A DNA stretch of 64,000 nucleotides from Hormiphora californensis (GCA_020137815.1 CM035358.1:7998001-8062000); one strand, 5' to 3'; counted from the stretch's first letter, positions 1,658 through 25,600 are shown. Notes: generated by a model not told the origin, from the sequence alone. Made by a program: numbers and translations.

Positions 1658-4600
1658 CTGTGGGGAGGAAGGTGGGGGGTTAGTGGGGTTAGGATCTGTA
1701 GCGGGCCCTCTCGCATGAAAACTTTGGTGAGGCCAAGCTGAGGAGGAAGATGGCGGATTAGGGAGGTGTGGGGATTAGGGAGGTGTGGGGATTAGGGAAG
1801 GTGTGGGGATTAGGGAGGTGTGGGGATTAGGGAGGTGTGGGGATTAGGGAGGTGTGGGGATTAGGGAAGGTGTGGGGATTAGGGAGGTGTGGGGATCAGG
1901 GAGGTGTGGGGATTAGGGAGGTGTGGGGATTAGGGAGGAGAGAGGTGTGGGGATTAGGGAAGGTGTGGGGATTAGGGAGGTGTGGGGTTCGGGAGGGGTG
2001 GATTCAAGAGGTGTCGACTGCAGTGGAGATCAGGGTTAGGGAAGTGTAGGGATTTGGGAGGGAAAGGACGGGACAACTGAGCGAGTGGGAAATGGATCAA
2101 TGATGCCAACATATTTTTACCTGATATTGTGTGAGGATTAGGGAGGGAGAGGTGTGGGGATTAGGAAAGGACAACTGATATCTAACTATATCTAATGCAA
2201 ATTTGCACGGAAAAGTGACACCCTATCGTCAATGTGACGACGTGATCCGTCAATGTGACGACGTGATCCGTCAGCGTGACGACATGATCCGTCAGTGTGA
2301 CGACGTGATTCGTAGGTATCACGTACCACACGTGTTGAGAACTGCTTGCGACTTGAGGGGTCACATCACATGTATAAAAGGGAGAGAAAGAGAGAAAAAG
2401 AGAGGGATCACATCACATAGCATATAACAGACAGGCAGAGAGAAAAACAGACCCCTCGATTTGCGATCGGTACGATCGCCCCAGTTTTGCTAGTACAGTC
2501 GGACCCCGATTTAGGGGCCCCCGATTTAGTGGCACCCCGATTTAGGGACAGGATTTGTTTTCCCCGATATAGGAAATTAACCTTATTTGACCCCGATTTA
2601 GTGGACACCCCGATTTAGTGGACAAGAGCCTTTCCCCCGAGGGTGTCCCTAAATCGGGGTCCGACTGTATTACTAATACTACACAGCTCAAATTAATTTT
2701 TACCTGATATTGTCCCTTTTCAATCTGGGCCCACTCGAAAAATTTGTCAATGTTCGTCTCATTTTGTTGGGACTCTCTGAACAACAACCTGAACTGGTTC
2801 AGAAACTCCTGAAAGAATAGAGGGGAATTTAGTTGGCTGAAGGAGAATTAATAGAGTTTCACCATCCCTATTTTACCAATCACCCAACTTGGCTCAGGCT
2901 ACCCCCCCCCCCCTTGAATCCCCTCCATATCCAGGTAATCTATCCCAGCCACATGAGGGTATTTTTAGTGCTACTTATATATCTATATTGGGTCAGATCT
3001 ATTTAAGGCATCCAATTATGTTGTATGTGGTAGGTGAAACACACATGTTACAGTTACCATGACAACAACAACAACTCCCAGGCCTATCTCTCCCTCTTAG
3101 ATGGTATGTGATCTTATATGGTATGTATCTCTCTCTCTCGACTTAACTATTTATCAAATTTTTAAGCATGTCTCCCACCCGTTATATCCTGAGTTGTGCT
3201 AACCTTACTCCACCTTATCTCATGCTGGGAGACTGTAAACAAGTTGCAGAGCAAAGTGTTCTCTGCTCATTGTGATAACTTCAATTTCTAACTATATGCC
3301 TACTTTTTTAGCGAAGATCATTAAACTAACTCTACTCCTTTTTAGCAAAGACCATGAAACTGACGCTCCTTCTGGTGGTATCCCTAATCCCGATTACCAC
3401 CGCACATGATACCGATCAGGACAAAACAGAAAGTGATGATGATATGAACACATCGCTCGCTCCCCTGGTGTACATCACTGGCGGAATAGCTATATTCTTT
3501 CTCCTGACCTGTATTTCAACATGTACCTACAACATGGTGACTCAGAAGAATCTCAATTCCAAATCAATCGTGTTGAAGAACCAGCCTGGTCCGTCATCAA
3601 CTTGCGAATCCATGACTCACATTTAGGTTGCCATAGCGAATCCATGACCCACATTTAGGTCGCTAGGTAACATGAATGACTTACATTTAGGTTGCTAGAT
3701 GTGTTACAGTAAGCTGTAACATGAATGACTTACATTTAGGTTGCTATAGCTATTGTATATGTAGCTGTGATATAGCATTCTCAAAACAGTTAAAAACCAA
3801 TGACAATATTGACGATCTTGCTGAGATAAAATAAAGATGATGCCATGTGAGTCTTGAATTTATTATACATGTATTCTATTTATTGGAACATTTTAAGTGC
3901 TTTCACTGAACTATTCATGATCGATGTATTGGTCGCCCCCATTTATTTCATTATTTTTGTAGAAAATTAATCGTGTTTTCCTTGCTAATTAGGTATTGAT
4001 GTAACTCCTTTTTTTAGCAGAATACCATGAACATGATTCCACTCCTTTTTTAGCAGAATACCATGGACATGATTGATCTACTACTGGTGATATTCCTAAT
4101 CCCGATTACCAGCACAAATACCACAAGAAATAATAGCATTGATCAGGACAAGACAAAAAGTGATAATGAGATAGACACATCGCTCTCTCCTTTGGTGTAT
4201 GTAACTGTTGGAATAGCTATATTGTTCCTTCTGACATGTATTTCAACTTGTATCTACAACATGATTACACAGAAAGATTTTAATAATTCCATATCAAGGG
4301 TGTCAAAGAACCAGGTCCAACAAGGTCCATCAACCTGCCACACAGACATAGGAAACCCATGATGCGTCCTAAATCCAGCTGTATTTATATTTTGTTGTGA
4401 AATCCATGATTTAGGTTGCTATAGCTGTTACAGAACTACAGAAATTAGTAATGAATGATTCACATTTAGGTTGCTATATAGCTGTCTAAGTACAGAACTG
4501 CATACAGAACCCGGCAGCTGTGATATAGCATTCTCAAAACAACCAATGACAATAATGACAGTATGGCCGAGAAAATTACTATGTACACCATGTGAGACTT

Positions 4601-22600: not shown

Positions 22601-25600
22601 TGCCTTTACACGGACAAATAAAGTTATGGCTATTGTAGAGAGGAAGAGACTTGAAGCACAGTGTGTTACAATGACTTGAAGCAAAGTGTGTTACAATGAC
22701 TTGACCAGTATATCTGCTAGGGGATGCGCTTCAACCCTACGTAGAAGACCATACTGTTTGCTAGCTGGTGGCTGTATGATTCAATAACTTGATACAGTGG
22801 CAGCCATCCCTCCCTCCCGTGGCGGCATGACGGTGATCAGTATCTGCTAGATGATGCCATTCAACCATGTTCTCTCTGCGTAAAGAGAATGAATAATACT
22901 GTTTGCTAGGTAGCATGACGGCTATGAAATTTAAAATTGACCTGTAGCGATATGTAAATGGAACGCACATAACATGTATTATTGGAACGCATAACATGTG
23001 AGAGGGAGGTAGAGAGAGAGAGAGAGAGTGAGGGAGAGAGAGAGAGAGAGAGAGAGAGAGAGAGAGAGAGAGAGAAAAAGAGAGAAGGAGCGTAATTGCG
23101 TCCTGCGTCAGGAAGAATGACGTGCGAATGAATGTTTAAAGAGAGGAGGAGTACTTATTTATAGGATATAATTCAACTATTTCTCAAAATAGTCTCCATC
23201 TGTTCTTTGTTAATATTCTTTGCGTGTCTTCAACTCCTTTATCTTGCTACTATGACTTCTTCACAATACGATGGCTCTACTATAACAGAAGACTCCGGAT
23301 CAGATGGCATCCCCTTTTCCACCTGGATCTGGTTTGTAGTGATTGCAGTACTGACAGTGGTGGCGGTCATTGTGGTGTTTATACTGAAACGAGCCTTCAC
23401 ACGAACAAATAGAGTCATGGCTATGGTGGAAATGAAAAAGAGAGAAGCGAGGTCTAATGCAGCTGCTGCTGAAGTTGAAAGTGGAACTACTTGATACATT
23501 ATTGGACAAAATTAACTGTTAAACTGATTTGTTAGGCCGATAATTGACTTGATCTGCTGAACCCTCATAGTGTGTGATCGCTCTGTGTTGTCATTTCATT
23601 ACATAAATGCAGCGTGAGCGCAACAACAATTATCATGTTTTTAAACATAAGGGATGATGACTAAACGGTTGAAAAACGTCAATAATCCTACACTGTATCA
23701 GATGTCAATCCTTATTGTGACTGCTTTGATTCCCTGATCTCTCACTGACAAAATGAACACTACTACTATGTCACGTGATTTGAATGGATCAGCCTCAATC
23801 ACTGGGAATGGAACTCTAGTAAACTCTGACATTATTCCTTCAATCCCTGGGAATGGAACTCTACATGGGGGAACTACAATTCCCCCATTTGAATCGCACA
23901 TCTGCATTCACCCAACACCCTGGATTTGGTTTTCTGTGATAATAGTGATTGGAGTGGTTGTGGTGATTCTGGTTTATTATCTAAAGCAAGCATTCAACCA
24001 AGGACCCGAGGACCCACAGGGCACAATGATGGTTAGTGAACTATCGGCAGAGAGTACTGACATTTGAAGACTATCATGGAACAGGGAAATCTAATGTTGG
24101 AACAGTTTATTATTTTTATAAAATGAGCGTACCTTTTGATTTTATTCAAAGTTTTTTACCTTATGTACCTATTTCATGCCTCGTAGTATATAACACTTCA
24201 ATCTCACGCTGTTACCCCAAATCCCCCGTCCCCTCGGCCCTCCCCATACCCCGCTTCTCCCACCAACCCCACCCACCCCACCCACCCCGGCCCTCCCGGC
24301 TCCCTATACCCCCACCCACCCCGCTTCTCCCACCCACTGCTTTCCACGTACCTCTTGGTTGTACCGGACGGGATAGCTGGCCTTCCTTATCTGAATTGTT
24401 TCCAACATCCCAGTGTACCGGAGCTGTCTGTCAACGAAATCCAACTGGAACAAATCCGCAGAGCCGTCTTCGTTGCTCTTGATACATCGGATAAAGTGTG
24501 GTGTTCCCGAGTTTAGCACTTTAACCAGGGAGTTTAGAGAGGTCTGGAAGGAGAGATATTGTAAGAGAGATGGGTGGGGAGGGACGAGGGTGGGGTGTTG
24601 AATGTTGCTACAGGGGGGGGGGGACGGTTTTAGTAGGAAGTTTCCAGTACCATGAGTCAAAACAAGAATAATTAGTAATAATTTATTAATTAGTAATCAA
24701 TTATAATTACCATGAATTGACCAACAACCGTAGATCGAGCTTGCCTTCTGCCTCGAGGGTTTGTTCTAAAACACTGCTGTTGCCTTGCCTGTCTATACTT
24801 GCTTGCTGGGATCTGGAGGGGAATAGCATTGGTAGTTACCATGGTTACCTCCTGGTTACTATGGCGAGTTACAATGGCTGGTTACCTCCTGGTTACCATG
24901 GTTACCATAATAACCGGTATGTTTGATACAAAATAAAAGTGGGAACATGTTAACCTACATGAAATACATCCCGTGATTCGTTTCTTCTTGGTGGCTGATT
25001 CTGTTTTGGTCCATCACTGCTTCTCCGCACCTTAGGGCCATCTACCTCCAACAGAGGACTTGAATGGTAATCACTCATGTACGCACTAGCCCTGTCCCTG
25101 ACACTCCTACTGGCGTCCCCACTGTCTGACTTGTTCCTGGGTCGAAATGAGACGCCCTGATCCCGATCAGATGGACTCTCAGAGTTGGATAGGATAGCGT
25201 TACGACAGGCAAACACTCCACTGATGTAGTTACGGAGAAGGGTCCACCTGTGATGGAGGGGTTTTAGGTGGGCACTGGGCACCTAGATGTAAAAGGAAAG
25301 GGGTTTATAAGGGTGTGAGGGGGTATTTTAGGGTACACAGGAAGGGGTGGAAAGAGGGGATGGGGACATTATTAGGTGTGAGGGGGTATTTTAGGGTACA
25401 CAGGAAGGGGTGGAAAGAGGGGGTGGGGACATTATTAGGTGGGAGGGGGTTTTACGGTTGGAGAAGAATGGAAGGGGTGTTGGTTTCAGAGTTTGGGAGA
25501 GCTAAAGGAGTTGGGGAGACTCACCTAGCAAGTGCAACAGGATCACACCCGATAAGACGTTTGATGAACAGGGACTGGCTGCTTTTTAGCACGTGTACAA

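What the first reader, a model, noticed from the sequence alone, without database searches (positions are those of the whole stretch)
2809..24351. Eleven-gene cluster of orphan single-pass membrane proteins nested antisense inside one myosin IX intron
Seen: the myosin motor exon ending YPVRYNQE (24352) splices in phase 0 to EFLNQFRLL (2808), so 2809-24351 is a single 21.5-kb intron. Seen: all 11 plus-strand ORFs in it have a single coding exon and share one design (short ectodomain, one TM, low-complexity tail, juxtamembrane Cys in most), yet they form several sequence families (A: 3354/4063; B: 5189; C: 6986/8901/17573; D: 22431/23252/23753; singletons 18650 and 20865). Flanking DNA is duplicated as well. 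Known: nested intronic genes are reported as frequent in ctenophores. Inference: an expanding, lineage-specific array of membrane adaptor or surface proteins, possibly co-regulated in one cell type.
Basis: partly seen in the sequence, partly recalled or inferred. Interest (0 to 1): 0.82.

Follow-up and report, generated by a model that had tools for sequence, protein, structure and literature searches.

The report
Eleven membrane genes inside myosin intron
In comb-jelly DNA, eleven small reading frames predicted to encode single-pass membrane proteins lie back to front inside one likely 21.5-kb intron of a myosin IX gene, most show signs of selection on their protein sequence, and four carry a short motif that likely recruits ubiquitin ligases, an extreme case of the known gene-inside-a-gene layout whose RNA and function are untested.

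Summary
Observation largely confirmed. The 24352/2808 junction is GT-AG, phase 0 and colinear with lobate comb-jelly myosin IX; no read across it was obtained. The eleven plus-strand ORFs exist. Nine pass a strict single-pass filter, against about 0.1 expected by chance and 0 of 41 ORFs outside the intron. Paralog dN/dS is 0.08-0.49 in 9 of 10 comparisons, and ORF E's repeats vary only silently.

Corrections: they are not one design and not all orphans. C1, C2, C3 and D1 have relatives elsewhere (Pleurobrachia bachei models, unnamed ENA contigs), so the duplications look old, not recent. D1-D3 lack signal peptides. A decayed LINE with a MITE fills about 29% of the intron. These four likely work as WW/Nedd4-type adaptors, like Commissureless, PRRG or TMEM207, but are not Shisa-like members.

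Nested antisense genes are common in comb jellies, and NF1 and MOB2 are precedents. Expression, co-regulation and a trans-spliced operon are untested. The scan held no look-alike of C3 on other DNA; it noted one unrelated PPxY cluster in an amoeba.

The parts
24352..24534 (-). Myosin IX motor exon upstream of the large intron (donor at 24352/24351)
   Evidence: 83% identical to Bolinopsis and Mnemiopsis myosin IX; residues 825-890 of P0001
2809..24351 (-). 21,543-nt GT-AG phase-0 intron of myosin IX (inferred from homology)
   Evidence: no myosin-like match inside
2704..2808 (-). Myosin IX exon downstream of the large intron
   Evidence: residues 890-927 of P0001; a contig of run X1 is spliced at its far end, 2704
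3354..3626 (+). A1, 90 aa: predicted signal peptide, acidic spacer, TM with 2 Cys, short tail; T-rich AG ends at 3345
   Evidence: dN/dS vs A2 0.39
4063..4362 (+). A2, 99 aa: tandem paralog of A1 (62% identical); T-rich AG ends at 4017 and 4053
5189..5530 (+). B, 113 aa: predicted signal peptide, Ser/Arg-rich spacer, TM, three Cys, Gly-rich tail; no homolog found
   Evidence: architecture only, the weakest-supported gene together with F
6986..7402 (+). C1, 138 aa: predicted signal peptide, TM, Pro/Gln tail with one PPxY (residue 121)
   Evidence: homolog P0145, 49% identical, motif kept
8901..9626 (+). C2, 241 aa: predicted signal peptide, acidic spacer, TM, Cys cluster, 10-aa repeats, two PPxY (218, 232)
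   Evidence: Pleurobrachia bachei homologs P0121 and P0122, 47% and 59%
11064..17397 (-). Decayed LINE in pieces: Cys-rich region plus endonuclease start (15823-17397), RT (13548-14639), RT end plus RNase H (11064-12659); outer ends not fixed
   Evidence: Pfam Exo_endo_phos 1.2e-6, RVT_1 1.9e-21, RNase_H 1.2e-12; no convincing target-site duplication
12828..13564 (.). MITE-like insertion splitting the RT frame; 23-nt perfect inverted ends and 152-nt inner arms 97% complementary
17573..18388 (+). C3, 271 aa: paralog of C2, two PPxY (249, 262); T-rich AG ends at 17446
   Evidence: homologs P0123 and P0143, 60%, both motifs kept; dN/dS of PY end vs C2 0.21
18650..19348 (+). E, 232 aa: weak signal peptide, TM, Pro tract, 14-aa tandem repeats; no PPxY
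   Evidence: 5 of 5 variant codons among 5 full repeat units are silent third-position changes
20865..22010 (+). F, 381 aa: predicted signal peptide, long Ser/Arg/Asn-rich outer part, TM, Cys cluster, acidic tail, one PPxY (363)
   Evidence: no paralog or homolog found (Pfam, PHROGs, Atlas only)
22431..22679 (+). D1, 82 aa: no signal peptide, Val-rich TM, basic cytosolic segment
   Evidence: homologs P0141, P0142, P0144, 61-76%; the 23 residues after the TM are identical in all four
23252..23494 (+). D2, 80 aa: paralog of D1
   Evidence: dN/dS vs D1 0.26, core 0.08
23753..24067 (+). D3, 104 aa: diverged D paralog with four N-glycosylation sequons before the TM
   Evidence: dN/dS of core vs D1 0.20; sequons

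Best explanation
The likely intron of this comb-jelly myosin IX gene holds eleven plus-strand reading frames predicted to encode single-pass membrane proteins, a cluster that likely grew by old local DNA duplication, and the four with PPxY motifs likely act as membrane-anchored adaptors that recruit WW-domain proteins such as Nedd4-type ubiquitin ligases. Steps: (1) Host and intron: homology shown, splicing inferred. (2) Origin: tandem duplication with flanks is shown for A and C; persistence across a species split is inferred from separate counterparts of C1, C2 and C3. (3) Protein-level selection: shown for A, C2/C3, D and E; shown as cross-sample conservation for C1; inferred from architecture alone for B and F. 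(4) Topology, predicted from hydropathy and charge: A, B, C, E, F N-terminus out via a signal peptide; D without one; the Cys next to the membrane are likely palmitoylated. (5) Function, inferred: C1-C3 and F would bind a client membrane protein through or near the TM and bring a WW-HECT ligase to sort or remove it. D would bind a conserved partner through its invariant basic cytosolic segment. A, B and E have no such motif and would be accessory or surface subunits. (6) The antisense orientation likely persists because it avoids mis-splicing into the host, and the genes are likely transcribed apart from myosin IX with no functional link to it.
For: Junction colinear with P0001 residues 890/891. 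Single-pass ORFs 9 seen vs 0.04-0.11 expected, 0 of 41 outside the intron. dN/dS 0.08-0.49 in 9 of 10 paralog comparisons, bootstrap share of pN>=pS at most 0.035; all five indels within the A1/A2 coding alignment are multiples of 3. E repeats: 5 of 5 variants silent. Homologs at 47-76% identity. Tree: C1+P0145 100/99, C2+P0121+P0122 98/94. PPxY in C1, C2 (2), C3 (2) and F, kept in 4 of 5 C homologs; two motifs arise in 0.2% and 0.5% of shuffled C2 and C3 tails. More basic residues after than before the TM in 9 of 11 (B and A2 do not). Atlas neighbours of C1 are TMEM52B, TMEM207, WBP1-like and VOPP1 at 0.78-0.86, a lead only. Comm, PRRG4 and Rcr1 bind Nedd4/Rsp5 WW domains by PY motifs (PMC5578492, passages). 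NEDD4/Su(dx) dates to the opisthokont ancestor (PMC2770060, passages). 71% of fly nested genes are antisense, ascribed to selection against mis-splicing (PMC3814207, passages).
Against: Only 4 of 11 carry PPxY, so the adaptor reading covers a minority. A single motif arises in 3% (C1) and 6% (F) of shuffled tails. P0122 ends before the motif and P0121 lacks the second one. No Pfam match to WBP-1, Shisa or TMEM52 at E 0.1; Atlas scores are under 0.9 and recognition is low. PPxY need not mean Nedd4: TMEM207 bound YAP and WWOX, and not NEDD4 in one test (PMC12757530, passages). A comb-jelly Nedd4 was not looked up here. The C1/C2 N-terminal comparison is not significant (dN/dS 0.80). The fork placing C3 with P0123/P0143 is open and the D tree is unresolved. 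Protein-guided alignment biases dN/dS downward in gappy parts. Whether the homologs sit in the same intron is unknown, and five of the six unnamed or model homolog clusters have no genomic context here.
Confidence: 0.6

Rival explanations
1. The eleven genes form one or two polycistronic units transcribed antisense to myosin IX and cut into single mRNAs by spliced-leader trans-splicing, i.e. a comb-jelly operon for one membrane module.
For: All 11 are co-oriented; 5 of 10 stop-to-start gaps are 258-572 nt. A T-rich AG lies 8-126 nt before A1, A2, C1, C2 and C3, while 0 of 19 61-nt windows at myosin exon starts hold T5AG. The leader was on 56% of Iso-Seq reads in Hormiphora (PMC8527503, passages).
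Against: The motif was drawn from these sites, so its count (23 vs 14 expected) is circular, and it may be inherited from one or two ancestors. No such motif within 300 nt upstream of B, E or D1-D3. About 6.3 kb of LINE separates C2 from C3. TATA-like words precede A1, B and C1. The same AGs could be ordinary 5' UTR intron acceptors or mark monocistronic trans-splicing. The word 'operon' does not occur in PMC8527503.
Confidence: 0.17
2. The proteins are fast-evolving surface or secretory-vesicle components of one cell type (gamete, colloblast or immune-like cell), and PPxY only controls their own turnover rather than that of clients.
For: Low-complexity Ser-, Gly- and Pro-rich parts; relatives detected only in Pleurobrachia and unnamed contigs. 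Colloblast candidates are enriched for comb-jelly-specific genes, signal peptides and TM domains (PMC6278862, passages). Fly nested genes are narrowly and often testis-expressed.
Against: Outer parts are mostly 10-35 residues, too short for a folded binding domain. The most conserved parts are the TM and the cytosolic side. The same paper found no enrichment of single-pass or low-complexity proteins among colloblast candidates.
Confidence: 0.18
3. The cluster is largely spurious or foreign: decayed repeats, an endogenous virus, or an assembly join that only mimics an intron.
For: No read across the junction. B and F have no relatives or paralogs. Intronless orphan arrays can be viral.
Against: Chance controls, dN/dS, silent repeat variation, Pleurobrachia homologs. 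No PHROG match except one TM-only hit at E 0.0011. No D relative in viral contigs. The myosin exons are colinear and in order on both sides.
Confidence: 0.05

Closest known systems
Nested intronic genes of Hormiphora californensis (PMC8527503; passages and section 38 read; supplements not available)
   Same: Genes inside an intron of another gene, often next to transposons (1,109 of 2,357).
   Different: The average is about 1.4 nested genes per host (2,357 in 1,654 hosts) and the figure example has four; here eleven lie in one intron, all antisense and all single-pass. The per-intron maximum may be in supplements I could not see.
Human NF1 intron with OMG, EVI2A and EVI2B; MOB2 with 13 nested genes including a KRTAP5 paralog cluster (PMC4394429, passages)
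   Same: Several coding genes antisense in one intron of a large GAP-domain gene. That EVI2A/B are single-pass proteins with one coding exon is recalled, not checked.
   Different: Three genes, not eleven; no sequence relation; here several paralog families and PPxY tails.
Commissureless, PRRG1-4, yeast Rcr1/2 (PMC5578492, passages)
   Same: Short single-pass proteins with cytosolic PY motifs followed by acidic and hydrophobic residues, and Cys in or near the TM.
   Different: No LPxY and no Gla-like part here; C and F have signal peptides; no sequence homology detected; binding untested.
Shisa-like (STMC6) family: WBP1, VOPP1, CYYR1, TMEM92; and TMEM52/TMEM207 (definition as quoted in PMC5578492; Pei and Grishin 2012 not held; Atlas)
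   Same: Signal peptide, one TM, juxtamembrane Cys, Pro-rich tail with PPxY (C1-C3, F).
   Different: The six-Cys outer domain is absent; no Pfam match; Atlas scores under 0.9.

Membership tests
Myosin IX (host) | RA domain and motor most like class IX | tested here: met
   Window exons match P0001 residues 45-978 in order; top hits carry RA, motor, C1 and RhoGAP
Myosin IX (host) | C1 and RhoGAP domains in the tail | not testable with these tools
   They would lie beyond the window's left end; no genome held
Nested intronic genes | Coding regions lie wholly within one intron of the host | tested here: met
   intron inferred from homology
Nested intronic genes | Independent transcripts within the intron, host spliced across it | tested here: inconclusive
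   Run X1 is too diverged; it shows only the neighbouring small intron spliced
Shisa-like / STMC6 | Outer domain with six Cys in C*C*CC*CC pattern | tested here: not met
   No Cys between signal peptide and TM in C1-C3 or F; pattern as quoted
Shisa-like / STMC6 | One TM and cytosolic PY motifs | tested here: met
   4 of 11 proteins
Shisa-like / WBP1 / TMEM52 | Profile match to the family | tested here: not met
   No such Pfam hit at E 0.1 for 11 ORFs or 7 homologs; Atlas under 0.9
Commissureless / PRRG | Extended LPxY motif | tested here: not met
   All six motifs are PPxY; no LPxY
PY-motif Nedd4 adaptors (functional class) | Binds a WW-HECT ligase and changes a client's sorting | not testable with these tools
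   Needs a binding and trafficking assay; no comb-jelly WW domain was on hand
SL-resolved operon | Co-oriented genes, short gaps, acceptor before each gene | tested here: inconclusive
   11 of 11 co-oriented, 5 of 10 gaps under 600 nt, T-rich AG before 5 of 11
SL-resolved operon | Leader on downstream mRNAs and one shared promoter | not testable with these tools
   No raw RNA reads listed

The most novel reading that the evidence does not exclude
The intron houses a comb-jelly operon: one antisense transcript, cut up by spliced-leader trans-splicing, encodes a whole kit of unrelated-looking single-pass micro-proteins (PPxY ligase adaptors plus accessory subunits, A and C from one deep ancestor) that together remodel the surface of one comb-jelly cell type and exclude myosin IX transcription there.
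Probability: 0.12. Interest if true: 0.8.

Novelty: new variant of a known kind. Interest (0 to 1): 0.45.

Why it matters
It gives a compact, testable case of how lineage-specific membrane genes collect in one intron. It also adds uncatalogued PPxY-bearing single-pass families from comb jellies; my search for 'ctenophore + PPxY + Nedd4' found 0 papers in the held library. If they recruit Nedd4-type ligases, the Commissureless-like way of sorting surface proteins is in use, probably by convergence, in the earliest-branching animals. If the cluster is polycistronic, it would be a direct test for operons in a phylum known to trans-splice. Without RNA data it remains a large example of a known layout.

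Tried and rejected
No whole genome is held, so genome-wide copies and synteny were not tested. No RNA holder was listed for 17400-24600. Run X1 laid on 2300-5430 gave two contigs, none on A1, A2 or the start of B; the run is only about 82% alike where laid, so this says nothing on expression. The large junction exceeds the 20-kb limit for laying reads. Exact look-ups: none of the 11 ORFs is in the protein collection (F also with a longer start). No relatives in JGI metagenome contigs for D (263 pattern hits, 0 confirmed) or C3 (598, 0 confirmed), or in viral contigs for D (73, 0 confirmed); the C alignment was too loose for that scan. Homolog searches were uneven: C2 alone, a C profile, and a mixed profile of A1, A2, B, C1 and D1-D3, which missed even the C1 relative found later. 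E and F had no HMMER search of the large collections. So 'no homolog' for A, B, E and F is weak, and so is the absence of lobate hits. Pfam hits of the 11 ORFs are all below cut-off and TM- or signal-peptide-driven, including Conotoxin at E 0.093 on A1's signal peptide; rejected. Atlas for F: best 0.76, unnamed. D1 homodimer prediction: no answer (score 0.03, mark 0.32). Rfam on 1-26000: 0 matches. A 13-nt match to the leader's end at 2687-2699 (minus) is within chance (17 of 100 shuffles at 1 mismatch); rejected. No extra short single-pass ORF (40-74 aa) on the plus strand of the intron. No target-site duplication longer than 9 nt for the LINE. A versus C kinship: A1 scores 21.3 bits on the C profile, above 1000 of 1000 segment-wise shuffles, and A2 10.6 bits, reached by 1 of 1000; suggestive only, since shuffling also destroys shared design. 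Pei and Grishin 2012 and Derelle 2010 are not held. Literature searches found no description of this locus; the library lacks most subscription papers.
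Full report
HOST AND INTRON. The minus strand carries a myosin. The exon 24352-24534 hits myosin IX proteins, best Bolinopsis microptera P0001 and Mnemiopsis leidyi P0002 at 83% identity, next best 63% or less, so the window is comb-jelly DNA. tBLASTn places 19 exon blocks in order from 43477 to 1493, covering P0001 residues 45-978; residues 825-890 end at 24352 and 890-927 resume at 2811. 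The boundaries are GTACGT and TTTCAG in phase 0, and nothing myosin-like lies between (best E 1.6). The intron is thus well supported by homology. It is not shown by a read. The one listed run, X1, gave a 418-letter contig matching 2704-2754 with 9 differences. By eye, its loose end matches 1628-1657 at 22 of 30 letters with all 8 differences at third codon positions, so the neighbouring small intron is spliced in a related animal. Its other end runs 189 letters, past the exon's end at 2808, but could not be placed.

THE ELEVEN ORFS. All are present on the plus strand. Ten of 72 ORFs of 75 aa or more passed my single-pass filter, all in the intron: nine of the eleven and one antisense frame over the LINE; none of 41 outside. 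Markov controls gave 0.04 and 0.11 against 9 (0 of 200 each). The thresholds were set after seeing the ORFs. Nei-Gojobori dN/dS: A1/A2 0.39 (core 0.22); D1/D2 0.26 (core 0.08); D1/D3 0.20; D2/D3 0.37; C2/C3 0.49, 0.40 and 0.21 for N-terminus, tail and PY end; C1/C2 N-terminus 0.80, not significant. In E, 5 of 5 variant codons among five repeat units are silent; the C2 and C3 repeats do not show this (1 silent, 4 not). B and F rest on architecture alone.

NOT ONE DESIGN, NOT ORPHANS. A, B, C, F and weakly E begin with a hydrophobic signal-like stretch; D1-D3 do not, and D1's start is shared with three homologs. C2 has two Pleurobrachia bachei homologs (P0121, P0122); C3 (P0123, P0143), C1 (P0145) and D1 (P0141, P0142, P0144) have homologs on unnamed ENA contigs of 670-1213 nt. 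Identities are 47-76%. The C tree joins C1 with P0145 (100/99) and C2 with the Pleurobrachia pair (98/94); C3's fork is open, though BLAST favours C3 for P0123. With paralog dS of about 0.6-2.3 outside the repeats, the duplications look older than the split from these relatives, which speaks against a recent burst. No lobate protein was returned, but the searches were uneven (see Tried and rejected). About 29% of the intron is a decayed endonuclease-RT-RNase H LINE split by a MITE.

HOW IT LIKELY WORKS. C1, C2, C3 and F carry six PPxY motifs near their C-termini, on the predicted cytosolic side. The motif is kept in 4 of 5 C homologs (P0122 ends before it; P0121 lacks the second). Short single-pass proteins with such motifs, Commissureless, PRRG4 and Rcr1, bind Nedd4/Rsp5 WW domains and control the surface level of clients (PMC5578492, passages), and that ligase family dates to the opisthokont ancestor (PMC2770060, passages; comb jellies undecided there). 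The Atlas neighbours of C1 are TMEM52B, TMEM207, WBP1-like and VOPP1, all under 0.9. I infer that these four work like PY adaptors. They are not Shisa-like members: the six-Cys outer domain is absent and no profile matches. The partner may be another WW protein: TMEM207 bound YAP and not NEDD4 in one study (PMC12757530, passages). An earlier scan note on an amoeba cluster also judged a Nedd4 link unsupported there (e1-634615, unchecked). In D, the 23 residues after the TM are identical in D1 and three homologs while the outer part varies freely, which points to a conserved cytosolic partner. A, B and E have no recognisable motif. No link to myosin IX function is indicated.

ORIENTATION AND TRANSCRIPTION. 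All eleven are antisense to the host. This is the usual bias (71% in flies, ascribed to selection against mis-splicing; PMC3814207, passages). Five of ten gaps are 258-572 nt, and five genes have a T-rich AG 8-126 nt upstream that is not seen at 19 myosin exon starts. Since comb jellies trans-splice widely (PMC8527503, passages), an operon is possible. But the motif was picked after the fact, is missing before B, E and D1-D3, and a LINE splits the array; I give it 0.17.

COMPARISON AND VERDICT. Hormiphora has 2,357 nested genes in 1,654 hosts (section 38). Human NF1 has three antisense coding genes in one intron and MOB2 hosts 13 nested genes (PMC4394429, passages). The layout is known; the number in one intron, the shared single-pass build across several families and the uncatalogued PPxY and D families are what is new. 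My searches found no account of this locus, and the scan's index has no look-alike of C3. Supplements of PMC8527503, which may list nested genes per host, could not be read. PMC6278862 and PMC12460157 were seen as passages. Verdict: real feature, new variant of a known kind, interest 0.45; the adaptor mechanism is inferred and covers 4 of 11 genes.

Noticed in passing
window 1690-1740 vs 1611-1660: The edge of the myosin exon ending at 1657, with its acceptor, is copied into the adjacent intron; by eye the copy has a silent change. Matches the 'exon-edge echo' notes of this scan.
   Followed up: partly
window 11064-17397 (minus): Decayed LINE with Cys-rich N-terminal region, endonuclease, RT and RNase H. 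About 700 nt of repeat-rich DNA (15130-15820) interrupts the endonuclease and ends in AG just before the frame resumes; intron or insertion, unresolved.
   Followed up: partly
window 12828-13564: Young MITE-like element with 23-nt perfect inverted ends and nested 152-nt arms (97%), apparently inserted at a TA in the RT frame.
   Followed up: partly
window 8844-9040 vs 17517-17700; 7870-7953 vs 9688-9778: C2 and C3 share upstream DNA (71-73%), and C1 and C2 share an 82% block downstream. C2 and C3 share an N-terminal HHY where the C2/C3 homologs have HHL, and their repeat tracts have lower dS (0.24): possible gene conversion.
   Followed up: partly
window 36431-38396 and 38776-41210: A 68-nt tandem array of about 2 kb and two inverted blocks of a short-unit repeat inside another long myosin IX intron (32596-41409).
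   Followed up: no
window 47369-50381 and 52618-52836 (minus): Fragments that look like an ABC-F family gene with a transposon-like ORF inside it, and a ubiquitin-like FAU-type first exon; labels recalled from the translations, not searched.
   Followed up: no
window 45198-51787: A roughly 125-nt element repeated at least five times (45198, 46310, 47050, 50080, 51650) at 88-97% identity.
   Followed up: no
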